A stretch of 46,529 bases of DNA. Source: Candidatus Omnitrophota bacterium (GTDB lineage Bacteria; Omnitrophota; Gorgyraeia; Tantalellales; Tantalellaceae). Where the stretch lies: positions 1-46,529 of the forward strand of contig JBDRBI010000131.1 in assembly GCA_043822885.1 (NCBI GenBank), in the 5' to 3' direction. Each line of letters opens with the position of its first letter. Positions within the stretch are counted from its first letter, which is position 1. Positions 3,338 through 44,736 of the stretch are shown piece after piece. The notes beneath the pieces are model-generated. The model was not told where the DNA came from, ran no database searches, and saw only the letters and a program-made list of their open reading frames with translations. The translations under genes and the position numbers were made by a program.

Positions 3338-3396
3338 GTTCCCCTCTGTACATAACACATCACACATTCCACATTACACAATATCAGTCACTTTCC

Positions 3397-3422
3397 GACT
3401 ATAGTCTATGGTCTATAGTCTC
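3397..3422. repeat. TATRGTC heptamer array directly after the hflC stop
   Basis: gactatagtctatggtctatagtctc, preceded by a degenerate core atatcagtcac (3381-3391). Confidence 0.8.
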
Positions 3423-5440: not shown

Positions 5441-6036
5441 AAGATAGACGAAGAGCAGATCAGGAGAAATAGAAGAGAGCGGAAGGAGTCACCAGGTCAC
5501 CTGTCACCAAGTCATCAGAAAAAGAAGGTAGAGGATAGAGGGTAGAAAATGTAGAGGCGGTTCGTGAACCGCCCTTAAAGAGTCACCCCCGGCTGCCTTC
5601 TTTTGGGACATATGGCCGGGGCAGGCAAGTCACCAGTTGATAGAGCTTAGAAGTTAGAAGCGAGAGGCGAGAAGGGAGAGCGTGGAAGATGTCACCAAGT
5701 CATCAGGTCACCAGTCACCAGTTGATAGAGCTTAGAAGTTAGAAGCGAGAAGACAGGAAAAACAAAAGTAAAAAGTAAAAAGTTCGGATTGATTGACTGA
5801 TATGCTCTTGAGTTCAGAGTTATGAGTTGGGTTTTTAATTTTGTCTTCTGGATTTCTACCTTCTATCTTCTATCCTCTATCTTCCAACTCTGACTCCTGT
5901 AAATAAGCTGGTACCCAGGTAACCTGCTTGTCCCGAGCGAAGCCGAGGGGGTAACTAGGTGACCTGGTGACTAGGTGACTGGTGACTAGGTGACTTTTTC
6001 TACTTTCTCGCTTCTACTCTCTCGCTTCTATCTTCC
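5441..6036. repeat. composite mosaic of heptamer arrays in mirror order (~600 nt imperfect palindrome)
   Basis: Left half: purine TAGAAG-type arrays, GTCACCN x4 (5488-5518), AGAAGGT/AGAGGAT (5523-5557), further GTCACC and TAGAAG blocks, AAAAGTA x3 (5763-5783), core GATTGACTGAT (5791-5801), GAGTTNN (5807-5833). Right half holds the complements in reverse order: CTTCTAY arrays (5845-5885), GGTGAC x5 (5950-5994), TTCTAC/TTCTCG (5998-6036). Confidence 0.9.
5582..5634 (+). repeat. GC stem-loop module, copy 1
   Basis: GTCACCCCCGGCTGCCTTCTTTTGGGACATATGGCCGGGGCAGGCAAGTCACC. Homologous to 44416-44465 (same strand) and 41192-41244 (reverse complement). Stem CCCCGGC / GCCGGGG. Confidence 0.75.
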
Positions 6037-6108: not shown

Positions 6109-6185
6109 GGCGGGGTAGCTCAGATGGTTAGAGCGCACGGCTCATACCCGTGTTGTCGACGGTTCGATCCCGTCCCCCGCTACCA
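6109..6185 (+). tRNA. tRNA with anticodon CAT (Met; could be lysidine-modified Ile2)
   Basis: Hand-folded cloverleaf: acceptor GGCGGGG/CCCCGCT (G1.U72), D arm GCTC-AGATGGTTA-GAGC, anticodon arm CACGG-CTCATAC-CCGTG, variable TTGTC, T arm GACGG-TTCGATC-CCGTC, encoded CCA. It lacks the initiator signature of three G-C pairs at the base of the anticodon stem. Confidence 0.9.
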
Positions 6186-7266: not shown

Positions 7267-7276
7267 AACTCAAATC

Positions 7277-7390
7277 AGTTGGGAGTTAGGAGTTCGGAGA
7301 AATAATACAAAATGGTCACTTAACTCATAACTCCGAACTCAACAGCACATCAGTCAATCACTCCGAACTCCTAACTCATAACTCTGAACT
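7277..7390. repeat. GAGTTNN-family hairpin with core motif
   Basis: Left arm agttgggagttaggagttcggag (7277-7299) matches the reverse complement of the right arm (7361-7390) at 21 of 23 positions. Core ATCAGTCAATC at 7349-7359 touches the right arm. Confidence 0.9.
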
Positions 7391-7406
7391 TTTTCGCTTC
7401 TCGCTC

Positions 7407-8468
7407 CTATCTTATCCATGCTCCGCCGGCGACTATTTCATCATCATAAAACACTATGGCTTGTCCCGGAGCCGGCGCAAATTGCGGTTCGAAAAATTCC
7501 ACTATGGCTTCATCTTTACCGCTGGGAGTTACTGTCGCTTTCGCCTTTTTGCCTTTATATCTGATCCTACTCAAAAATTCGCGTTCTTTTTTTAATCCTT
7601 CGGGGATAAGCCAGTTAAATCCTTCAACGGTGATCTTCTTCCTCATAGCCTTATCTTTTTCCGCTATGGTGATCGTGTTTTTTTTCGCGTCTATATCTAT
7701 CACATAGAAAGGCTCAGGGCCTGCTACCCCCAGCCCATGCCTCTGACCGACCGTGTACGAAACTATGCCTTTGTGTTCCCCTATAACTTCTCCGGAGGAG
7801 TTCATAATATTCCCGGGTACAAATATTTCCGGATTAGTCTTTCCAAAATATTCTCTATATCCTGAGCCCTGCGCGAAACATATATCCTGACTGGACCGGC
7901 GCGTAGCCGACATAAAATTTTCGCGCATAGCTATTTCTCTGACATTTTCTTTCTTCATTTCCCCGAGCGGAAATTTTATGAACGGCAGTCTTTCCCGCGG
8001 TAAATTATACAGAAAATATGACTGGTCCTTATTTTTATCCAGGGCTTCCGCTAAATAATGTGTTCCGTCTCTTTCTATTATCCTCGCATAATGTCCGGTA
8101 GCGATGTATTCAACCCCGATCTCGGCGGCTTTTTCAAAAAGAAACCCGAATTTTATCTTACTGTTGCAGTAAACACAAGGACTGGGAGTTCTACCTTTAA
8201 CATATTCGTCCAAAAAATATTTTTTTATTTCGCGTGCGAACTCTTTTGAGAAATCCACTACATAGTAGGGTATCCCAATATCTTCAGCCGCGCTGCGCGC
8301 ATGTTGTATAGCGTCCAGAGAGCAGCACATCCTCTCTCCTGCGCCGCCGCAATCCTCTTTCGGCCAGGTCTTTATGGTTATCCCTATAACTTCCTGTCCA
8401 TTATTTTTCAGAAGAAGCGCCGCTACGCTTGAATCTACCCCTCCTGACATTGCCGCTACAACTCGCAT
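7407..8468 (-). CDS. mnmA: tRNA 2-thiouridine(34) synthase MnmA
   Basis: MRVVAAMSGGVDSS PP-loop at the chosen start (8468). The ORF-track start at 8537 would overlap apbE by 59 nt. Catalytic Cys residues and the C-terminal barrel are present. Confidence 0.9.
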   Translation of the reverse strand: MRVVAAMSGGVDSSVAALLLKNNGQEVIGITIKTWPKEDCGGAGERMCCSLDAIQHARSAAEDIGIPYYVVDFSKEFAREIKKYFLDEYVKGRTPSPCVYCNSKIKFGFLFEKAAEIGVEYIATGHYARIIERDGTHYLAEALDKNKDQSYFLYNLPRERLPFIKFPLGEMKKENVREIAMRENFMSATRRSSQDICFAQGSGYREYFGKTNPEIFVPGNIMNSSGEVIGEHKGIVSYTVGQRHGLGVAGPEPFYVIDIDAKKNTITIAEKDKAMRKKITVEGFNWLIPEGLKKEREFLSRIRYKGKKAKATVTPSGKDEAIVEFFEPQFAPAPGQAIVFYDDEIVAGGAWIR

Positions 8469-8478
8469 ATTTATTCCT

Positions 8479-9495
8479 TTACAAAATATAAGTTTCAGCG
8501 CCCTTGGATATTTTGACCTTTTCTCCGGATGATTCATTATTTATGATCATTATCTCAACTTCCTCCAGTTGATCGGCAAGCTCTATCGCCGTCTCCGTCT
8601 CCATTGCCATCATTCCCGTAGCCAAAGCGTCTGCTTCCGCACACGAAGAAGATATGACCGTAACACTTGAGGGCTTTTTCTCTAACACATTTCTTTCTTC
8701 CGGCACCGCAATATGAGCCAATATCCTTCCGCCTGTTCCCTCCACCACGTTTTCATAATCCCCGCTTGTCGCGATAGCGCCCGCGTTGATCTTTACCCTC
8801 ATTACCATTCCGTATCCTCCCGGGTCGCGTACACCGATTATCCAGGCGTCTTCCTCTCTCTCTGAATAGCAATACATGTCTCCTCCCGCGTCTATCAGAA
8901 AACTTTTAACACCTTCTTCTTTGATATACGCGTACATTTCGTCAACTATGTACCCCTTCGCTATCCCCGAAAGGTCTAACCATGCGCCTTGAAACAATGT
9001 AACCGTTCTTTTTGATCTAGTCAGCATAATATTCTCAAGCCCTATAGCCTCTTTTGTGTCCGGAATTTTTTCCAAGATCTCCGGCGGCATATCATGGTAA
9101 AATCCTTTCTCTTTCAAAATAGGACTTACCGTTATGTCAAATTTGCCGTCGGTTAAACTCCCTATCTCCAAGGCTTTTTCCAATACATCAAACATTTCCG
9201 AGGAAACATTCATTTTGCCCGAAAGGTTCAGCATGTTTAATTCGCTGTTCGGATCAAAAAGATCAAACTTCTTTTCAAGAACTACGGCTCTTTCAAAAGC
9301 TTTCTCAAGGATCTTTCTTAGATCCGTATCAGAATATTCGTTTGAACGGGCCTTAACCTGAACAAAAGTACCCATCAGTATTTTTTGAGAAACTACGTCC
9401 CGCGCCGTCTTTTCTTGTGAACATCCGTTTAACAGCACCGTCGCAAGGAAAAGGAAAGGTATGACGGTATGTCCGATAGAGCGCATCAAGATCAT
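8479..9495 (-). CDS. apbE: FAD:protein FMN transferase (ApbE family) lipoprotein
   Basis: Lipobox LLNGC. ApbE-family sequence (GIAKGY, ATSGDYE motifs). Confidence 0.85.
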   Translation of the reverse strand: MILMRSIGHTVIPFLFLATVLLNGCSQEKTARDVVSQKILMGTFVQVKARSNEYSDTDLRKILEKAFERAVVLEKKFDLFDPNSELNMLNLSGKMNVSSEMFDVLEKALEIGSLTDGKFDITVSPILKEKGFYHDMPPEILEKIPDTKEAIGLENIMLTRSKRTVTLFQGAWLDLSGIAKGYIVDEMYAYIKEEGVKSFLIDAGGDMYCYSEREEDAWIIGVRDPGGYGMVMRVKINAGAIATSGDYENVVEGTGGRILAHIAVPEERNVLEKKPSSVTVISSSCAEADALATGMMAMETETAIELADQLEEVEIMIINNESSGEKVKISKGAETYIL

Positions 9496-16305: not shown

Positions 16306-16648
16306 TTTTTTCCTTCACCTTAGTGGCCTTTTTCCCGAGCTTACTTCTAAGGTAATACAATTTAGCGCGTCTTATTTTACCCTTCTTCTTTACTTCGATC
16401 TTCTCTATCAAAGGGGAATACATAGGAAAGGTTCTCTCAACACCTTCTCCATAAGATACGCGTCTGACGGTAAACGTCTCGCTTGTTCCCGTCCCCTTTC
16501 GTGCGATAACAATGCCGGTGAATATCTGCACCCTCATCTTATTCTCTTCTTTGATCATAAAATGAACATCTACGGTATCCCCGATATTGAATTTTGAGAT
16601 ATCCTTTTTTATGAATTTTTTTTCAAGATCGCTTATCTGCTTTTTCAT
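16280..16648 (-). CDS. rplS: 50S ribosomal protein L19
   Basis: [10 protein letters not shown]...RVQ.F.G L19 signature. AAGGAGAGG SD upstream. ATGA overlap with the trmD stop. Confidence 0.9.
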
Positions 16649-17445
16649 CTTTTTCCTCTCCTTACCATTTTACAAGGGGAGATTGCCTCGTCTCTGCGCT
16701 CCTCGCAATGACGGCGCCCCCGCACATTCACTTTTTCCTCTAAATTTGCACATCGGTCAATCTCAATCCATGGTCTATCGTCTACCAAAAGATCCGGTCT
16801 TCTCTCCTTCGTCCTGATCTCCGCCTGTTCTTTTTGCCAAATACTTATTTTTTTCGGATCTCCGCATAATAGAACCTCGGGAACTTTCTGACCATGATAT
16901 TCCGCGGGCCTTGTATATTGAGGATATTCCAGTTTGCCCCCTTCAAAGGATTCCTCGTTGAGACATCCTTCATCCCCTAAAACTCCGGGTATGAGCCGTA
17001 TCACTGAGTCGCACAACACCATAGCGGGTATTTCTCCACAGGTTAAGACATAATCCCCTATAGAGATCTCCCCGTCGACCAAACTGCGGATCCTTTCGTC
17101 GAACCCCTCATAATGTCCGCAAACAATTACCACATGTTCCTTTTCAGAGATCGATCTTGCCTGATCTTGATCATATTTTTTCCCCTGGGGCGTCAATAGG
17201 ATCACGTAGGTATTCTCTTTTCTAAGCGTTATTAAAGCTTTATGCACCGGTTCGACTTTTAAGACCATCCCCGGGCCGCCGCCATAAGGCTTATCATCCG
17301 CCGTTCGATGCCGGTCATTAGTCCATTCGCGCAGATCGTGTATTTTTATATCCGCAATTCCGCGGCTTCGAGCGATCTTTACCATAGACTGATCAAAAAC
17401 ACCGCCGAACATATCCGGAAACAATGTTAAAATATCAATTTTCAC
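16645..17445 (-). CDS. trmD: tRNA (guanine37-N1)-methyltransferase, GTG start, repeat-derived C-terminal tail
   Basis: [15 protein letters not shown] motif. GTG start with a GGAG SD. The last ~45 codons ([14 protein letters not shown]...) are encoded by a heptamer array plus core motif. Confidence 0.88.
16748..16786 (+). repeat. core motif plus heptamer array embedded in the trmD 3' coding region
   Basis: GCACATCGGTCAATC (16748-16762) followed by tcaatccatggtctatcgtctacc. Same architecture as the intergenic copies. Confidence 0.75.
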
Positions 17446-17458
17446 AAAAACTCCTGTC

Positions 17459-17642
17459 GAGTTGATAGTTCATAGTTGATAGTTCATAGTTTAAAAAAAG
17501 CTTACCCGGGTTCATACTATAAAGCTATAAACTTAACGGTGCACCAGTCAATCTTCGAACCTTTTAACCTTTAAACTTTTTAACTTTTAAACCGTTCCGG
17601 CATCGGTCAATCACTACGAACTATGAAATATCAACTATTAAC
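17459..17642. repeat. ATAGTTN-family hairpin between rpsP and trmD, two core motifs
   Basis: Arms gagttgatagttcatagttgatagttcatagtt (17459-17491) and cactacgaactatgaaatatcaactattaac (17612-17642). Cores ACCAGTCAATC (17543-17553) and ATCGGTCAATC (17602-17612). CTTTTAA-type array at 17560-17593. Confidence 0.9.
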
Positions 17643-17643
17643 C

Positions 17644-17883
17644 CTATATTTCCAGTCTCTTTATTATGCTCTTCACCGTCTCAGAAGGTTTAGCGCCATT
17701 TTTTAACCAATACTCAACCCTTTCTCTGTCAAGAGCAACCTGGTCTTTTCCTTTTTTAGGATCATAATGACCCAATTCCTCTAATGCTCTTCCGTCACGT
17801 TTAGTTGATTTTGTCATCGCAACTATACGATAAAAAGGCTTCTTTTTCGTTCCGAACACTTTGAGCCTTAAAACAACCGCCAT
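17644..17883 (-). CDS. rpsP: 30S ribosomal protein S16
   Basis: MAVVLRLKVFGTKKKPFYRIV is the canonical S16 N-terminus. 79 aa. Confidence 0.92.
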   Translation of the reverse strand: MAVVLRLKVFGTKKKPFYRIVAMTKSTKRDGRALEELGHYDPKKGKDQVALDRERVEYWLKNGAKPSETVKSIIKRLEI

Positions 17884-17900
17884 CCTATTCCTCCTTGTTT

Positions 17901-18023
17901 AGTTAATAGTTCATAGTTGATAGTTCATAGTTAAAAAAAGCGCGCCAAGTATCAAGCATCAACCCCATGTAAAACTTAGCATATCGGTCGATCACTATGA
18001 ACTATCCACTATCCACTACCTAC
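17901..18023. repeat. ATAGTTN-family hairpin between murA and rpsP
   Basis: Arms agttaatagttcatagttgatagttcatagtt (17901-17932) and cactatgaactatccactatccactacctac (17993-18023). Core variant ATCGGTCGATC at 17983-17993. Paralogous to 17459-17642, including the TTAAAAAAAGC that follows the left arm. Confidence 0.9.
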
Positions 18024-19285
18024 TCTTTAATTCTCTCTATTTCCGCGCCCACAGCGGAAAGTTTTTTTTCTAAGTGCTCATATCCTCGATCGAGATGATA
18101 TATACGGGAAATTTCTGTGCGTCCTTCGGCTACAAGTCCCGCCAGAACAAGCGCCGCTGAAGCCCGAAGGTCCGAAGCCATCACTGTTGCCCCGCTCAAT
18201 CTTTTTACGCCTTTTATTATGGCGGTGGATCCTTCCAGTATAATGTTCGCGCCCATCCTGTTAAGTTCACTTATGTGTATGAACCTCTCCGGGTATATCT
18301 TTTCCGTTATGACGCTAATTCCTTCCGCAACCGTCACCAAACTCATCATTTGCGCCTGAAGATCCGTAGGAAAACCGGGATATGTCAACGTTGTTATATC
18401 CGTTACCTGCAGCTTGCTCTTCTTCCTTGAAACCTCTATTCCTCCGGGTTTTTCTTCTATCCGGCCGCCGCATTCTATCAATTTATCGATAAGCGCCAGA
18501 TTGTGTCTGCTTACCGCTCCCTCGATAAAAAGCTTTCCTCCTGTAATAAGCGCCGCTATCATGTAAGTCCCGGCTTCTATACGATCCGAGATAACATAGT
18601 GCTGCGCTCCGCCAAGCTTTTTAACTCCTCGGATCATCAAAGTGGGCGTCCCGGCCCCTCTTATGTCAGCGCCCATCTTTTTAAGAAAATCCGATAGATC
18701 GGAAATTTCCGGTTCACATGCCGCGTTCTCTATTATCGTTTCTCCGTCCGCCAGAACGGCGCACATAAGTGTATTAGCCGTCGCCAAAACACTGGATCCA
18801 AAATGTCCTCCCAGGTAGATCCTCGCTCCCTTTAACTTTTTCGCGGAAGCCACGATATAGCCTCCATCAATATGGATATCCGCTCCGAGAGCTCTAAGGC
18901 CTTTAAAATGGAGTTCTATCGGCCTCGGTCCGATCACACATCCCCCGGGGAAGGAGACCTTAGCTTCTTTTTGCCACGCCAAAAGCGGTCCCAAAACCGC
19001 GATAGAAGCGCGCATGGTACTAACTAATTCGTAAGAAGCCGTCGCCTTTTTTATTTTTCCCGCGGAAACTTCGACCGTATCTCCGCGTTTTACGATCTTT
19101 CTTCCGAGCGCGGAGATTATTTCTATCATAGTGTAGACATCTTTGAGATCGGGAACATTATGTACAACACTTGCTTCTTCGCTCAATATCGTAGCCGCAA
19201 GTATCGGAAGACTCGAATTCTTAGCCCCGCTGATCTTCACCGTGCCGGATAGGGGCCTTCCTCCTTTGATCACAAGTTTATCCAC
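18020..19285 (-). CDS. murA: UDP-N-acetylglucosamine 1-carboxyvinyltransferase
   Basis: KISGAKNS motif and the active-site Cys loop (PGGCVIGPRPI). 421 aa. Confidence 0.92.
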   Translation of the reverse strand: MDKLVIKGGRPLSGTVKISGAKNSSLPILAATILSEEASVVHNVPDLKDVYTMIEIISALGRKIVKRGDTVEVSAGKIKKATASYELVSTMRASIAVLGPLLAWQKEAKVSFPGGCVIGPRPIELHFKGLRALGADIHIDGGYIVASAKKLKGARIYLGGHFGSSVLATANTLMCAVLADGETIIENAACEPEISDLSDFLKKMGADIRGAGTPTLMIRGVKKLGGAQHYVISDRIEAGTYMIAALITGGKLFIEGAVSRHNLALIDKLIECGGRIEEKPGGIEVSRKKSKLQVTDITTLTYPGFPTDLQAQMMSLVTVAEGISVITEKIYPERFIHISELNRMGANIILEGSTAIIKGVKRLSGATVMASDLRASAALVLAGLVAEGRTEISRIYHLDRGYEHLEKKLSAVGAEIERIKE

Positions 19286-27848: not shown

Positions 27849-27861
27849 TTTCCCTCCTTAA

Positions 27862-27950
27862 TTAGTTCATGGTTGATAGTTCGTAGTTCGTAGCATATTG
27901 ACCGATACTCTATGTTTTAACTACAAACTATCAACTATCAACTATGAACT
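27862..27950. repeat. ATAGTTN-family hairpin between tsaD and mgtC; right arm runs into the tsaD stop
   Basis: From AGTTCAT onward, the left arm (ttagttcatggttgatagttcgtagttcgtag, 27862-27893) matches the reverse complement of the right arm (27919-27950) at 26 of 30 positions. Core variant ATTGACCGAT at 27897-27906. The last 6 codons of tsaD (EFIVDS*) are repeat sequence. Confidence 0.9.
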
Positions 27951-28932
27951 CTTTTGCAAGTTTTTCGCCTAAAAGGGCGACCATTGCGGCGTTATCGGCG
28001 CAATATTCTCTTCTCGGTACAAATAGCTCGTATCCTTTCTTTTCACAAAAAGAGGAAAGAGTCGAACGTAATACCTTGTTGCAGATCACTCCTCCTCCTA
28101 CCGCGAGACGCTCTACCTTCGTTGCTTTTATAGCTCGCGCGACCTTTTCTCTCACGACATCGACCACGGCTTCCTGAAAAGAATAGCAAATACGTTCCTT
28201 TTCTTCTTCCGTCTTATGAGCCGAATTCCAATGATAAAGAACCGCTGTTTTGATCCCGCTAAAGCTAAAGTCCAGATTATCCCGATCCTTAAGTAGTGCT
28301 CTCGGAAAATTAATGATCGCCTTCTTCCCGTTTTTTTTCTCTCGTAAAAATTTTTCCGACATTTTCTCCACGATAGGACCGCCGGGATAACCAAGACCGA
28401 GCATCTTTGATACTTTGTCAAAGGCTTCACCTATAGCGTCATCTTTTGTTCTGGCGATAGGGATAAAATCTGTCAAAGATCTAAAATGATATATGCTGGT
28501 ATGACCGCCGGAGACTATCAACGCTAAAAAAGGAAATAGTTTTTCCAATTCTTTCAATTTATTATCTTCATCGATAAAGCTGGATATAACATGCGCATGC
28601 AGATGATCAACGCCTATAAGAGGAACATTCAGCGCGCAGCTTATTGCCTGCGCAAAAACTTTTCCGATAAGAAGAGACCCAGGAAGACCCGGCTTCATAG
28701 TATACGACACCTGATCGACTTCGCCTATGTTCTTTCCCGCATCGCTTAAAGCTCTCTCTACCACTGAATGTATGTATTCTACATGAAACCGCGAAGCTAT
28801 CTCCGGAACTACCCCTCCGTATTTCTCATGCAGCTCTACACTAGAAGATACCTCGTTAGAAAGAACCCTCCCGTCCTCTACCAAAGAAGCCGCAGTCTCG
28901 TCACATGAACTCTCTATTCCTAAAACTATCAT
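27931..28932 (-). CDS. tsaD: tRNA N6-adenosine threonylcarbamoyltransferase
   Basis: GIESSCDET N-terminus and the Kae1/TsaD family HxxxH metal site (VDHLHAHV). 333 aa. Confidence 0.92.
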   Translation of the reverse strand: MIVLGIESSCDETAASLVEDGRVLSNEVSSSVELHEKYGGVVPEIASRFHVEYIHSVVERALSDAGKNIGEVDQVSYTMKPGLPGSLLIGKVFAQAISCALNVPLIGVDHLHAHVISSFIDEDNKLKELEKLFPFLALIVSGGHTSIYHFRSLTDFIPIARTKDDAIGEAFDKVSKMLGLGYPGGPIVEKMSEKFLREKKNGKKAIINFPRALLKDRDNLDFSFSGIKTAVLYHWNSAHKTEEEKERICYSFQEAVVDVVREKVARAIKATKVERLAVGGGVICNKVLRSTLSSFCEKKGYELFVPRREYCADNAAMVALLGEKLAKEFIVDS

Positions 28933-31044: not shown

Positions 31045-31089
31045 AATTTCATCCTTTTTGTATACTAGACAAATGATTTTTAGCCAAAT

Positions 31090-31276
31090 GGCGGAAGGGA
31101 ATATTTCCGCTTGTGCGCAATTTCTTAACGCATTTTTTCAAACTTTTTAGGGTGTTAAATGAACTCGCCCTCACTCGTTTTTATCGGTGTTCGGGCTCAA
31201 ACAGCATTTAACAATATTCCCTAAAAAGTTGTAAAAAATGCTAAAATTGCGATGCGCTCCAATGTCCCCTTCCGCC
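31090..31276. repeat. long-hairpin intergenic element, copy 2
   Basis: Outer arms GGCGGAAGGG (31090-31099) and CCCCTTCCGCC (31266-31276). Mid arms GCGCAATTT / AAATTGCG. Inner arms TTTTTAGGGTGTTAAATGAACTCG and CAGCATTTAACAATATTCCCTAAAAAG. Confidence 0.85.
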
Positions 31277-31320
31277 CTCCACCCTTTAATAAGAATTACC
31301 TTTACAATACTAAATTCATT

Positions 31321-34518: not shown

Positions 34519-34546
34519 ACCGGAATTACCTTATCATAATAATATT

Positions 34547-35000
34547 ATAAAGTCAATCCAGACAGATCTAAGATCGAAGGCCGCAGACCATAGACTATAG
34601 ACACTTGAGAATAAAAGTTAGAGGCGAGAAGATAGAAGCGAGATAAAAGTCACCAGTCACCTAGTCACCAAGTCACCAGTTGACAGGGCACCAGGTAATA
34701 GAAGATAAAGGCGAGAAATTAGACATTGACTATAGACTATAGACCATTGAACATAGACAGAGATTGACTGATGCGGGAATAAGAGTCATAGAGTCAGGTT
34801 GGACCGATGCGGGAGTCGAGTCAAAGAGTCAGTGGCAAAATGTTGACTCTAGAGAGCGAAGCGAACGATGACTCTAATGAGCGAAGCGAATGATGACTTT
34901 ATGACTCTCTCTATCCTCTAACTTATGTATGCAGACTGGTGACTAGGTGACTGGTGACCTGGTGACTCTTTATTCCTTCTACCTTCTCATTTCTCGTTTC
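34547..35000. repeat. composite heptamer mosaic between rsmA and gatC (~450 nt)
   Basis: AGTCAATCCAGAC (34551-34563). GACCATA/GACTATA arrays. TAGAAG-type arrays at 34617-34648 and 34699-34725. GTCACCN array 34649-34698. Cores GATTGACTGAT (34762-34772) and TTGGACCGAT (34799-34808), each followed by GCGGGA. GAGTCNN arrays. 25-nt tandem repeat 34854-34878 / 34879-34902. GGTGAC array 34935-34968. The CTTCT array runs into the rsmA stop. Confidence 0.9.
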
Positions 35001-40739: not shown

Positions 40740-40749
40740 GATTAGTAAA

Positions 40750-40815
40750 CAGTTTAAAAGTTTAAAAGTTTAAAGGTCTGGATTGACCGATGTGCAAATG
40801 TTATTGACCGTCAGT
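40750..40815. repeat. TTTAAAAG array plus core motif directly upstream of mfd
   Basis: cagtttaaaagtttaaaagtttaaagg (40750-40776), then GTCTGGATTGACCGATGTGC (40776-40795), then a second partial core ATTGACCGTC (40803-40812). Confidence 0.85.
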
Positions 40816-40839: not shown

Positions 40840-41111
40840 GGCAGAAGACAAGGCCTTCCTTCACAAGTGGCATTTTTTTACGTTTTTTTTCTAACTTTTT
40901 AAAGGTGTTAAATGAACTCGCCATAAATAGAAGTTAGAAATTAGAGGATAGATGTTAGAGGAAAAGCGGCTCACTAATCTTGATCTATCTTCTAACTTCT
41001 CGCTTCTACCCTCTATATTTTCGGGCTCAGACAACATTTAACAATGATCCTTTAAAAAGTTATAAAAAAACTAAAATGCCACAATTGTTCCCTCAGGCCT
41101 TGTCTTATGCC
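40840..41111. repeat. long-hairpin intergenic element, copy 3, with a nested heptamer palindrome in its apex
   Basis: Outer arms GGCAGAAGACAAGGCC (40840-40855) and GGCCTTGTCTTATGCC (41096-41111). Mid arms GTGGCATTTT / AAAATGCCAC. Inner arms AAAGGTGTTAAATGAACTCG and CAACATTTAACAATGATCCTTTAAAAAG. About 95 nt of TAGAAG / CTTCTA arrays (about 40923-41019) replace the apex. Confidence 0.85.
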
Positions 41112-41191: not shown

Positions 41192-41244
41192 GGTGAACGG
41201 CCTGCCCCCGTGCGTGTTTTCGAAGAAAACAACGGGAGGGGGGG
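41192..41244 (-). repeat. GC stem-loop module, copy 3 (reverse orientation)
   Basis: The reverse complement reads CCCCCCTCCCGTTGTTTTCTTCGAAAACACGCACGGGGGCAGGCCGTTCACC, which aligns with 44416-44465. Confidence 0.7.
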
Positions 41245-44401: not shown

Positions 44402-44415
44402 CAAAGTAGTCTTCA

Positions 44416-44736
44416 GTCACCCCCGCTGTTTTCTTCGAAAACATGCAGCGGGACAGGCAGTCACCTAGTCACCAGTCTAGAAGTTAGAGGGTAGAAGATA
44501 GAAATTAGATTAAATCAGCTAAATGTTTTCTTTCTACCTTCTACCTTCAGTGAAATTCTGAAATTCTAACCAGGTTAGCTAGCTAACCTGGTTAGATCTG
44601 TCAGGTTAGAATTTCATGCTATCTTCTCGTTTCTAACTTCCTTCTTCTACCTTCTATTCCCTGGTACCCCGATCCCTGGTGACTAGGTGCCCTGGTGACT
44701 GGTGACTTTTATCTCGCTTCTATCTTCTCCCTTCTA
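44416..44736. repeat. ~320-nt mosaic palindrome centred on a perfect 30-nt palindrome
   Basis: Left half: GC stem-loop module (44416-44465), GTCACC array, TAGAAG array (44477-44510), CTTCTAC block, GAAATTC repeats. Centre at 44566-44595. Right half: GAATTTC, CTTCT arrays (44619-44657), GGTGAC/GGTACC array (44658-44706), CTTCT array running into the proA stop. Confidence 0.9.
44566..44595. repeat. perfect 30-nt palindrome
   Basis: CTAACCAGGTTAGCT|AGCTAACCTGGTTAG, flanked by GAAATTCTAACC ... GGTTAGAATTTC. Confidence 0.95.

What the first reader, a model, noticed from the sequence alone, without database searches (positions are those of the whole stretch)
7345..7360. Conserved 11-nt core ATCRGTCAATC sits at the edge of heptamer arrays regardless of array family
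Six exact copies of ATC[AG]GTCAATC are present:
- 7349-7359 (+)
- 16752-16762 (+)
- 17602-17612 (+)
- 5791-5801 (-)
- 34762-34772 (-)
- 40781-40791 (-)

Near copies lie at 17543-17553, 17983-17993, 27897-27906, 34799-34808, 3383-3391, 34551-34563 and 40803-40812.

With uniform base composition, about 0.04 exact hits are expected in 93 kb of two-strand sequence (2/4^11 per position).

In every case the CAATC end is followed within 0-3 nt by a heptamer array, but the array family differs:
- GAGTT complement at 7361
- ATAGTT complement at 17612 and 17993
- TATGGTC at 16763 and on the minus strand of 34726-34761
- CTTTTAA on the minus strand of 40750-40776 and 5763-5783

The other side is often GCAY or CCCGC. 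A fixed word coupled to variable arrays suggests a recognition or nucleation site, for example for a nuclease, recombinase, polymerase-slippage initiator or DNA/RNA-binding protein, from which arrays grow. Both orientations occur relative to the uniformly minus-strand genes.
Basis: seen in the sequence. Interest (0 to 1): 0.75.

Follow-up and report, generated by a model that had tools for sequence, protein, structure and literature searches.

The report
Conserved anchor word beside heptamer arrays
A 15-18-base word is kept unchanged in several related uncultured bacteria (Candidatus Omnitrophota), always sitting where short tandem-repeat arrays and hairpin arms between genes meet; it looks like the recognition site of a family of tiny copy-and-move DNA repeats, a bacterial oddity so far described mainly in cyanobacteria.

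Summary
ATCRGTCAATC occurs 6 times (0.09 expected), never in conserved coding sequence, plus 6 degenerate copies. The conserved block is (ATTT)GC(AY)ATCRGTCAAT(C), with a sharp 3' edge. 5/6 exact and 9/12 total copies have a period-7/8 array starting within 8 nt on the 3' side, against 6.5% of intergenic positions.

The window is a Candidatus Omnitrophota MAG contig. The word recurs in at least two other species (MetF 76-79% identical) and in further metagenome contigs, again followed by arrays of different families. The same 18-mer in unrelated coding contexts has no arrays.

The arrays are mostly arms of long hairpins (z -3.2 to -5.7). The word lies in the loop flush against the 3' arm, or interrupts an array. 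It is one module of mosaic, nested, patchily distributed intergenic repeats.

Best reading (inferred): the cis-acting recognition or nick site of a small mobile repeat system. Arrays turn over by slippage while the word is held constant. The closest analogues are cyanobacterial SDR/STRR and enterobacterial BIMEs.

"Arrays grow from it" is not supported: 26 of 35 arrays lack the word, and relatives have arrays without it. No partner protein or mechanism could be tested.

The parts
7345..7359 (+). Extended core GCACATCAGTCAATC (the finding). It lies in the loop of a hairpin, 1 nt from the 3' arm, and interrupts an AACTCnn array.
5791..5805 (-). Extended core GCATATCAGTCAATC. It is part of a 62-nt repeat, 84% matched to the 7322-7383 copy, in inverted orientation.
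   Evidence: (I3)
16748..16762 (+). Extended core (aaattt)GCACATCGGTCAATC, inside the non-homologous 46-aa tail of the trmD ORF.
17598..17612 (+). Core variant CGGCATCGGTCAATC, between an AACyTTTw array and the CGAACTA-type 3' arm.
34762..34776 (-). Core variant CCGCATCAGTCAATC followed by TCTGTCTAT + (RGTCWAT)n.
   Evidence: (I6)
40781..40795 (-). Extended core (catt)TGCACATCGGTCAATC followed by (CTTTTAAA)n.
17539..17553 (+). Degenerate copy GTGCACCAGTCAATC followed by an (AACCTTTT)n array. With 17598-17612 it brackets a 59-nt array-plus-core insertion relative to its paralogue at 17979.
17979..17993 (+). Degenerate copy GCATATCGGTCGATC, 0 nt from the 3' arm of the murA-rpsP hairpin.
27896..27910 (-). 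Degenerate copy GAGTATCGGTCAATA in the loop of the tsaD-mgtC hairpin. The same variant plus a CGAAyyA array occurs in L201 at 9334.
34798..34812 (-). Degenerate copy CCGCATCGGTCCAAC embedded in a (TGACTC) array.
3383..3393 (+). Degenerate copy ATCAGTCACTT followed by (AGTCTAT)n. 39 nt are 82% matched to the 34734-34772 copy.
   Evidence: I6
40803..40813 (-). Degenerate copy TGACGGTCAAT, 22 nt upstream of the 40781 copy.
7360..7390 (+). Heptamer array (ACTCnnA)n immediately 3' of the core. Positions 7361-7383 form the 3' arm of the hairpin.
7277..7299 (+). 5' arm (AGTTnGG array) pairing with 7361-7383. The core stem is 17/17 bp; DNA-fold z = -5.1.
7321..7344 (+). AACTCnn array 5' of the core. 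It is in phase with the 3' array if 23 nt (or 16 nt plus one unit) are removed.
   Evidence: direct reading
5764..5790 (-). Array (CCGAACT)(TTTTACT)n 3' of core 5791.
17460..17491 (+). 5' arm (AGTTGAT/AGTTCAT)n of the rpsP-trmD hairpin.
17613..17642 (+). 3' arm (nnnAACTA)n directly after core 17602. It ends 1 nt before the rpsP stop codon.
17558..17593 (+). Octamer array (AACCTTTT) between the two cores 17543 and 17602.
17900..17934 (+). 5' arm (TAGTTnA)n of the murA-rpsP hairpin.
17993..18018 (+). 3' arm array (CACTATn)n directly after core 17983.
27864..27893 (-). 3' arm (CGAACTA)n after core 27896. It ends 4 nt before the Shine-Dalgarno sequence of the next gene.
27921..27950 (-). 5' arm (AGTTsAT)n. 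It also encodes the last residues (EFIVDS*) of TsaD.
34720..34761 (-). (RGTCWAT)n array 3' of core 34762.
40746..40776 (-). (CTTTTAAA)n array 3' of core 40781.
3399..3421 (+). (AGTCTAT)n array 3' of degenerate core 3383.

Best explanation
ATCRGTCAATC is the invariant part of a 15-18-nt, non-palindromic word, (ATTT)GC(AY)ATCRGTCAAT(C). The word is one module of a lineage-specific family of mosaic intergenic repeats in a small clade of Candidatus Omnitrophota.

The repeats are built from short arrays (3-6 units) of degenerate 7/8-mers. These arrays usually come as inverted pairs and fold into long hairpins. The word is present once per element. It lies in the loop, flush against the arm on its 3' side (0-6 nt), or it splits an array.

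The composite elements have multiplied, nested into one another and changed location between species. Their arrays turn over quickly, by slippage and homogenisation, so different copies now carry different array 'families'. The word itself is held constant.

I infer that the word is the cis-acting site through which a trans-acting DNA-processing protein recognises these elements and copies or moves them. On geometry, the best guess for that protein is a single-strand-specific nickase or transposase of the HUH kind.

Shown: the word, its boundaries, its array and hairpin geometry, its cross-species conservation, and its patchy, non-orthologous distribution.
Inferred: mobility of the module, recognition by a protein, and the class of that protein.
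For: Enrichment and boundaries:
- 6 copies against 0.09 expected.
- The conserved block has a sharp 3' edge.
- The array association is significant even within intergenic DNA.

Geometry:
- The hairpins are significant, with DNA-fold z of -5.1, -5.7, -3.2 and -4.6.
- The word lies in the loop, 0-6 nt from the 3' arm.

Conservation across species while the flanks are unalignable:
- L084 has an exact 15-mer; its MetF is 79% identical to the window's.
- L081 ('Ca. Aadella gelida', MetF 76% identical) has GCATATCGGTCAACA followed by a TCTTCTA array.
- L150 and L201 carry 4 more copies, all followed by arrays.

Negative control:
- The same 18-mer in 73 viral contigs has no arrays.
- Nor do about 115 unrelated metagenome hits, which lie in coding sequence.

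Mobility-type signatures:
- The folD-metF spacer carries the module in L081 and L084 but is 32 nt and empty in the window.
- The window's murA-rpsP, rpsP-trmD, trmD-rplS and mnmA-tauE modules are absent from the syntenic L081, L085 and L087.
- There is a 59-nt array+core duplication at 17543/17602 relative to the paralogue at 17983.
- The word interrupts in-phase arrays at 7349 and 34798.
- Elements overrun gene ends, as in the trmD tail.
- A heptamer hairpin is nested inside a MITE-like repeat.

Patchy phyletic distribution, which argues against a conserved host function:
- Relatives at 72-77% identity (L001-L004, L284-L287) have neither arrays nor word.
- L085 and L087 have arrays without the word.

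Descent as units:
- Array polarity 3' of the word is fixed.
- Core variants co-vary with array type across species.

Level of action:
- Orientation is 6+ / 6- relative to transcription, which points to the DNA level.
Against: - No transposase, nuclease or other candidate partner is encoded in the window; all 42 genes are housekeeping. The rest of the MAG could not be reached.
- No strict filled/empty pair differing only by the word was found. Presence/absence concerns whole modules.
- No target-site duplication and no terminal inverted copy of the word were seen.
- The three Aadella assemblies are identical, so there is no population-level evidence of activity.
- Conservation could equally reflect a host-beneficial binding site.
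- Known HUH systems place the conserved site either in a conserved hairpin or at its foot, with the enzyme gene nearby. Here the arms are variable.
- The sample is small: 12 copies in the window and 6 elsewhere. The copies from relatives were partly found by searching for the word itself.
Confidence: 0.4

Rival explanations
1. Host-beneficial architectural site. The word is the binding site of a nucleoid-associated or regulatory protein placed between inverted repeat arms. This would resemble the IHF site in the L motif of E. coli BIME-1/RIP elements or in Neisseria Correia elements. The repeats would be retained because the protein-hairpin complex organises DNA or modulates operon expression.
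For: - The word is asymmetric, 15-18 nt, single-copy and central between inverted arms.
- It is conserved across species while the flanks diverge.
- It occurs in the same spacer (folD-metF) and the same orientation in L081 and L084.
- The hairpins sit inside operons next to stop codons and Shine-Dalgarno sequences.
Against: - The distribution among close relatives is patchy, and most positions are non-orthologous.
- There is no match to the E. coli IHF consensus WATCAANNNNTTR (direct reading).
- There is no common function among the flanking genes.
- Both orientations occur.
Confidence: 0.2
2. SDR-type micro-element. The word itself, 16 nt (25-26 nt in the AACT subfamily), is a self-contained very small mobile insertion. 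It targets pre-existing heptamer arrays and hairpin loops, like the 21-27-nt small dispersed repeats of Nostoc punctiforme.
For: - At 7349 the AACTCnn array is back in phase if 23 nt, or 16 nt plus one unit, are removed.
- At 34798 the word sits inside a TGACTC array.
- The AACT-subfamily consensus AGCAYATCRGTCAATCACTMCGAACT is about 26 nt.
- From my memory of the Elhai et al. 2008 abstract (paper not held): SDRs are often embedded within tandem heptamers.
- PMC4390886 confirms precise insertion of SDR5 into HIP1.
Against: - There is no conserved internal secondary structure in the word (direct reading).
- The left boundary is variable (GCAC, GCAT, CCGC, CGGC).
- No clean empty site was found.
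- Core variants co-vary with array type, which suggests the word travels with its array rather than alone.
Confidence: 0.15
3. Array nucleation. An enzyme acts at the 3' end of the word, for example by nicking followed by slipped or templated synthesis. It creates tandem 7/8-mers de novo, so arrays grow outward from the word.
For: - Arrays start crisply 0-9 nt from the 3' end of the word and fade distally.
- Array polarity is fixed.
- Different unit sequences follow the same word.
- Two arrays have identical units next to the word: 27896 and L201 9334.
Against: - 26 of 35 arrays have no word at an edge.
- L085 and L087 have arrays without the word.
- The complementary 5' arms lack a word.
- The same array type follows the same core variant in different species, which indicates descent rather than de novo growth.
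- In L139 the arrays lie on the 5' side.
- Unit similarity shows no gradient over the first three unit pairs.
Confidence: 0.1
4. Passive relic. The word has no function. It is simply the non-repetitive, and therefore mutationally stable, flank of one ancestral array element that spread recently or horizontally. Arrays drift fast and the word has not yet decayed.
For: - Within subfamilies the word is part of longer repeats of 39-150 nt at 82-90% identity.
- The distribution is patchy.
Against: - Loops and other unique parts of the same elements are not conserved between species or subfamilies, while the word is.
- The degenerate position R is shared as a polymorphism in several genomes.
- The species differ by 21-24% at the protein level, so neutral DNA should be scrambled.
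Confidence: 0.1
5. DNA uptake signal sequence, or a promoter -35 element. The reverse complement contains TTGACY.
For: - The word is an over-represented short word conserved among related species, in both orientations.
- TTGAC matches the -35 consensus.
Against: - There are no copies in about 40 kb of coding sequence, and no inverted-pair terminator arrangement.
- No -10 element lies at 16-18 nt in most copies, and no promoter is predicted at any copy in 16600-18100 (manual check of the other copies).
- Half the copies point against the genes.
Confidence: 0.05

Closest known systems
Small dispersed repeats (SDR1-8) embedded in tandem heptamers (STRR) of Nostoc punctiforme and relatives (Elhai et al. 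2008, Genome Res 18:1484; recalled, paper not held; cited in PMC3116915 and PMC4390886)
   Same: - A very short conserved dispersed word lies inside or at the edge of tandem heptamer arrays in intergenic DNA.
- Arrangements are nested.
- Distribution is lineage-restricted and patchy.
- No transposase is associated.
   Different: - The phylum differs (Omnitrophota, not Cyanobacteria).
- The conserved block is 15-18 nt rather than 21-27 nt.
- It has no conserved internal hairpin.
- Here the heptamer arrays are mostly paired as hairpin arms, with the word at the loop-stem junction.
- Sequence identity to SDR1-8 could not be tested.
BIMEs / RIP elements of enterobacteria: REP (PU) inverted pairs with conserved extra-PU motifs, including the IHF-binding L motif (established knowledge)
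   Same: - Both are mosaic intergenic elements inside operons.
- Inverted arms flank a conserved, non-palindromic central motif.
- Several alternative junction modules exist. A second module was seen here.
   Different: - The arms here are degenerate tandem heptamers of several families, not one conserved palindromic unit.
- There is no GTAG or CGTC head.
- There is no IHF consensus.
Origins of HUH-nuclease replicons: geminivirus/nanovirus ori and the pMV158-type double-strand origin (established knowledge)
   Same: An invariant short word is displayed in or next to a hairpin loop, adjacent to short direct repeats that differ between relatives.
   Different: - There are many chromosomal copies with no adjacent rep gene.
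- The repeats form the stem itself.
- No nicking has been shown.
- This is a 'works like' analogy only.
TAACTGA heptamer direct repeats of Beggiatoaceae, Cyanobacteria and Bacteroidetes (MacGregor 2015, PMC4679880)
   Same: - Both involve abundant intergenic tandem heptamers of 2-6 copies in operons, including ribosomal protein operons.
- The phyletic distribution is patchy.
   Different: - In that case one unit sequence is used, mostly in forward orientation just upstream of start codons, and no conserved flanking word or hairpin pairing is reported.
- Here there are many unit families, both orientations, paired arms and a conserved junction word.

Membership tests
SDR elements (Elhai 2008) | Dispersed repeat of 21-27 nt present many times per genome | tested here: inconclusive
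   The conserved block is 15-18 nt overall and about 26 nt in the AACT subfamily. There are 12 copies in 46.5 kb. Only one contig of the genome is available.
SDR elements (Elhai 2008) | Embedded in tandem heptamers, HIP1 or mini-transposons | tested here: met
   9 of 12 copies have arrays within 8 nt 3'. Copies 7349 and 34798 interrupt arrays.
SDR elements (Elhai 2008) | Conserved secondary structure supported by compensatory changes (SDR4-6) | tested here: not met
   No self-complementarity is conserved across the 18 copies (direct reading).
SDR elements (Elhai 2008) | Sequence match to SDR1-8 consensus; restriction to Nostocales | not testable with these tools
   The paper is not held. The host here is Omnitrophota.
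STRR-type tandem heptamer repeats | Short tandem arrays of 7-nt units in intergenic DNA | tested here: met
   There are 35 arrays of period 7/8 or multiples, 23 nt per kb against a median of 1.5 in other loci. This applies to the arrays, not to the word.
REP / REPIN (RAYT-associated) | 20-40-nt imperfect palindrome with a conserved GTAG or CGTC head | tested here: not met
   The word is not palindromic and has no GTAG. True GTAG REPs exist separately in L201, L085 and L087.
REP / REPIN (RAYT-associated) | RAYT gene in the genome | not testable with these tools
   Only this contig of the MAG is available.
MITE | Terminal inverted repeats, target-site duplication, 100-600 nt, related autonomous element | tested here: inconclusive
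   Inverted arms and sizes of 110-190 nt are met. No TSD was seen at the element borders by direct reading of 17455-17645, 17896-18020 and 27855-27955. No autonomous partner is available.
DNA uptake sequence (DUS/USS) | Over-represented 9-12-mer spread through genes and spacers, often as inverted pairs forming terminators | tested here: not met
   There are no copies in conserved coding sequence and no inverted pairs of the word.
Sigma-70 promoter | -35 TTGACA-like hexamer with a -10 at 16-18 nt, oriented toward a gene | tested here: not met
   No predicted promoter overlaps a core in 16600-18100. A manual check of the other copies found a good -10 only at 40803 and in L081. Half the copies are antisense.
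Rolling-circle / HUH origin | Conserved nick word in or beside a hairpin plus an adjacent rep or transposase gene | tested here: inconclusive
   The geometry is met. No such gene is in the window. Nicking is untestable here.
Known RNA families / CRISPR | Match to an Rfam model; repeat-spacer structure | tested here: not met
   Only tRNA-Met passes the gathering threshold. Nothing significant was found at permissive thresholds around the cores.

The most novel reading that the evidence does not exclude
The word is the entry site of an unknown enzyme that both mobilises these elements and seeds new tandem heptamers at its 3' side, by nick-primed slipped or templated synthesis. That would make it a dedicated repeat-generating system. 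It could also explain how STRR-like heptamer arrays arise in unrelated phyla such as Cyanobacteria, Beggiatoaceae and Omnitrophota.
Probability: 0.1. Interest if true: 0.85.

Novelty: new variant of a known kind. Interest (0 to 1): 0.55.

Why it matters
Tandem heptamer arrays and very small dispersed repeats are long-standing unexplained features of cyanobacterial and giant sulfur-bacterial genomes. No mobilising machinery or function is known for them.

Here an analogous system appears in an unrelated, uncultured phylum. It has a clearer anatomy: heptamer arrays paired as hairpin arms, and one sharply bounded, cross-species-conserved word at the loop-stem junction.

That anatomy gives a concrete handle. 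The word can be used as a probe for phyletic profiling to find the partner protein. It can also serve as a substrate for binding and nicking assays.

There is also a practical consequence. These elements extend or rewrite gene ends (trmD, tsaD) and fragment assemblies, which affects annotation of Omnitrophota MAGs.

Tried and rejected
- Same-genome expansion. Exact-protein look-ups for window genes were not on record. The MAG is not in genome contigs; the best MurA match there is 77%.
- Metagenome scan with the 21-nt AACT-subfamily pattern found nothing.
- The viral scan gave only unrelated coding hits. I used it as a negative control.
- Promoter hypothesis: rejected (plus manual spacing checks).
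- Rfam: no family.
- IHF consensus, LexA/Cheo box, DnaA box, Type I R-M bipartite sites and a tRNA T-arm relic were all considered by eye. None fits.
- Shufflon-like inversion between the inverted copies 5791 and 7349: rejected. tauE between them is not inverted. Only tRNA-Met is, and its boundaries are not at the cores.
- The IS110 in L081 as an insertion into a core: its flanks do not reconstitute the word.
- Population variation: L081, L082 and L083 are identical. L087 versus L088 is uninformative.
- More distant relatives fetched via RsmA and MetF (L209, L210, L284-L287) have no arrays and no word.
- A unit-similarity gradient along arrays, as a test of polar growth, gave no signal.
- Elhai 2008 could not be read, so the SDR consensus sequences were not compared.

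Full report
**1. Checking the observation**

Dinucleotide-preserving shuffles give 0.09 expected matches, and none of 100 shuffles reaches six.

With two mismatches the word falls to background (30 matches against 24.5 expected). I read all of them in context.

Five exact copies are intergenic. The sixth (16752) lies in the last 46 codons of the trmD ORF. TrmD homology to relatives ends at residue 220, so that tail is read-through of repeat DNA.

An alignment of 18 copies (12 from the window, 6 from other loci) shows high information content from -4 to +11. There is weak ATT at -7 to -5 and a sharp drop after +11. The conserved word is (ATTT)GC(AY)ATCRGTCAAT(C).

**2. Association with arrays**

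Tandem Repeats Finder lists 35 separate arrays of period 7/8 or multiples. Almost all are in the 6.2 kb of intergenic DNA. I scored period-7/8 self-similarity starting within 8 nt on the 3' side of each copy.
- 5/6 exact copies and 9/12 of all copies reach at least 16/21.
- Only 6.5% of intergenic positions and strands reach that score, and 1.2% of random window positions do.

The coupling is therefore real even conditional on being intergenic. The stated distance of 0-3 nt is really 0-9 nt. Conversely, 26 of the 35 arrays have no copy of the word at an edge.

**3. What the surroundings are**

All 42 protein genes are housekeeping genes on the minus strand. The best homologues are Candidatus Omnitrophota. 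The window is a complete 46,529-nt NCBI MAG contig (P0001).

The spacers are mosaics of short degenerate arrays: AGTTnnn/nnnAACT, RGTCWAT, CTTTTAAA, GTCACCnn, TAGAAGn/CTTCTAn and TGACTC. These mostly occur as inverted pairs.

Folding shows long hairpins whose arms are these arrays. DNA-fold z-scores are -5.1 (7267-7400), -5.7 (27849-27960), -3.2 (17890-18030) and -4.6 (L201 8225-8365).

In each hairpin the word lies in the loop, 0-6 nt from the first paired base of the arm on its 3' side. Elsewhere it splits an array. At 7349 AACTCnn units lie on both sides, in phase if 23 nt are removed. At 34798 the word sits inside TGACTC units.

Array polarity is fixed. The strand 3' of the word is always the AACT strand (5 of 5), the GTCTAT strand (6 of 6) or the CTTTTAAA strand (2 of 2), never the complement.

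**4. Is it part of one larger repeat?**

Partly. Within subfamilies the similarity extends well beyond the word:
- 5767-5828 versus 7322-7383: 62 nt, 84% (I3).
- 3383-3421 versus 34734-34772: 39 nt, 82% (I6).
- The AACT subfamily shares AGCAYATCRGTCAATCACTMCGAACT.
- In relatives, a whole element of about 130-150 nt is shared by L084, L150 and L201. It reads arm, reverse-complemented word, variable loop, arm.

Across subfamilies only the 15-18-nt word is common.

**5. Related sequences**

No same-species sequence exists in the collections. The best MetF homologue is 79% identical.

The word is nevertheless present in the closest relatives:
- L084 (MetF 79% identical) has an exact aaatttGCACATCAGTCAATC.
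- L081, L082 and L083 ('Ca. Aadella gelida', 76%, syntenic with window 1-21000) have gaatttGCATATCGGTCAACA. It runs straight into a TCTTCTA/CCCTCTA array.

Both of these lie in the folD-metF spacer. In the window that spacer is 32 nt and empty.

Most hits are coding, in methionine aminopeptidase (ICTSVN) or a gut-phage gene, and have no arrays. The non-coding hits L150 and L201 carry the word followed by GTCTAT-type arrays. L201 has two further copies, one followed by a different family, CGAATCA.

Seventy-three viral-contig hits have no arrays, which serves as a negative control.

In L139 the exact 18-mer lies at the 3' foot of a heptamer-arm hairpin, so the arrays are on its 5' side. This is an exception to the rule.

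**6. Distribution**

Syntenic relatives differ.
- L085 (75%) and L087 (74%) have hairpins whose arms are species-specific short repeats, but no word.
- L001-L004, L209, L210 and L284-L287 have neither arrays nor word.
- The window's modules in murA-rpsP, rpsP-trmD, trmD-rplS and mnmA-tauE have no counterpart in L081, L085 or L087.

The system is therefore patchy and mostly non-orthologous. It nests: a heptamer hairpin sits inside a MITE-like repeat at 40925-41020, and core-bearing units sit inside the loop of the GTCACC/TAGAAG hairpin at 34519-34986. It also overruns gene ends (trmD, tsaD). These are hallmarks of selfish, duplicative repeats rather than of a conserved regulon.

**7. Mechanism**

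Shown:
- An asymmetric word, present once per element, at a loop-stem junction or inside arrays.
- Conservation across species whose proteins differ by 21-24%, while loops and arrays are unalignable.
- Both orientations relative to transcription.
- Core variants that travel with array types: ATTTGCAY...AATC with TCTGTCTAT arrays in the window, L150 and L201, and TATCGGTCAATAT with CGAAyyA arrays in the window and L201.

Inferred:
- The word is the cis-acting recognition site, possibly a nick site, of the protein that copies these elements.
- The arrays diversify afterwards by slippage and arm-to-arm homogenisation, which gives the impression of one word coupled to any array.
- The geometry resembles the way HUH nucleases read a short single-stranded word beside or inside a hairpin. 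No enzyme gene could be examined, so the enzyme class is a guess.

Alternatives remain open, in this order: a host architectural binding site (BIME-1/RIP-like), an SDR-type micro-insertion, true array nucleation, and a passive relic. Promoter and uptake-signal readings were tested and do not fit (and manual checks; no coding copies).

**8. Comparison with known systems**

The nearest description is that of the small dispersed repeats of Nostoc punctiforme. These are often embedded in tandem heptamers (Elhai et al. 2008; recalled from memory, since the paper is not in the library). Its existence and the precise insertion of SDR5 into HIP1 are confirmed by PMC3116915 and PMC4390886.

The present word is shorter, lacks an internal hairpin, lies in another phylum, and is tied to hairpin arms.
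- BIMEs share the mosaic logic but not the arm type.
- TAACTGA repeats (PMC4679880) share heptamer arrays but have no junction word.

No paper on such repeats in Omnitrophota was found.

**9. Verdict**

This is a genuine, statistically solid and cross-species-reproducible feature.

It is best filed as a new variant of small mosaic or dispersed intergenic repeats, with an unusually well-defined conserved anchor word. Function and machinery remain inferred.

Interest is moderate (0.55). The most novel surviving reading is a repeat-seeding enzyme site, at about 10% probability.

Noticed in passing
window ~201-400, ~31088-31290, ~40840-41110: There are three copies of a MITE-like repeat of about 200 nt with terminal inverted repeats (gacattttttaacgc...gttataaaaaatctaaaatgtc). 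The third copy carries a nested TAGAAGn/CTTCTAn heptamer hairpin at about 40925-41020 (D4/D10).
   Followed up: partly
window 5581-5634, 44415-44465, 41197-41236 (rc): A second junction module exists: a GC-rich mini-hairpin (CCCGsCTG...CAGCGGGrCAGGC) embedded in or next to GTCACC arrays and flanked by AGTCACC on both sides.
   Followed up: partly
window 34619-34723 and 44632-44736; 5650-5721 and 5964-6035: Compound arrays [TAGAAGn]n[GTCACCnn]n recur in fixed order as long inverted repeats: 105 nt at 81%, and 72 nt at 76%. They make whole spacers fold as large hairpins (I1, I2).
   Followed up: no
window 16645-16785 (trmD tail) and 27931-27951 (tsaD end): Repeat elements rewrite gene ends. The trmD ORF is 266 aa against 228-235 aa in relatives, and the last 46 aa are read-through of the element containing core 16752. 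The last six codons of tsaD (EFIVDS*) are the AGTTCAT/AGTTGAT arm.
   Followed up: yes
window 6109-6185 (+): tRNA-Met is the only gene on the plus strand. The orthologous tRNA is co-oriented with its neighbours in L081 and L087 but inverted in L085. This suggests repeated small inversions in this repeat-rich spacer.
   Followed up: partly
L085, L087, L081 (intergenic spacers): Related Omnitrophota have intergenic hairpins whose arms are species-specific short tandem repeats. Examples are ACAAGAT/AACCAAG, AAGCACAAAAT, GCAGATA and AGGTnnT. Many units fit a (U/G)AG-N4 pattern. Repeat-arm hairpins seem to be a clade trait independent of the core.
   Followed up: no
L201 ~8140-8170 and ~9461-9491; L085 and L087 several spacers: Classical GTAG-headed REP palindromes are present, for example TTGTAGCTGGGGTTTAAACCCCAGCTACAA and TGTAGGGGCAGGCCCCTGTGCCTGCCC. 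This implies RAYT-type systems in the clade. In L201 they flank a gene together with cores.
   Followed up: no
L081 4144-5751: An IS110-family transposase gene is inserted between trmD and rplS in 'Ca. Aadella gelida'. This is the same spacer that carries core 16752 in the window. The IS flanks do not reconstitute the core.
   Followed up: partly
metagenome and viral loci L089-L283: The 18-mer ATTTGCACATCRGTCAAY recurs by coding constraint in methionine aminopeptidase genes (…FPKS ICTSVN HVVCHGIP…) and in a gut-phage gene. This is a trap for pattern scans.
   Followed up: yes
window 34844-34898: A 25-nt tandem repeat, TGACTCTAAAGAGCGAAGCGAACGA, is present 2.2 times next to the TGACTC arrays and cores 34762 and 34798.
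   Followed up: no
window 17644-17883 (-): rpsP (79 aa) lies between the two core-bearing hairpins. The 574-nt 'spacer' 17446-18019 is therefore really two spacers, murA-rpsP and rpsP-trmD.
   Followed up: yes
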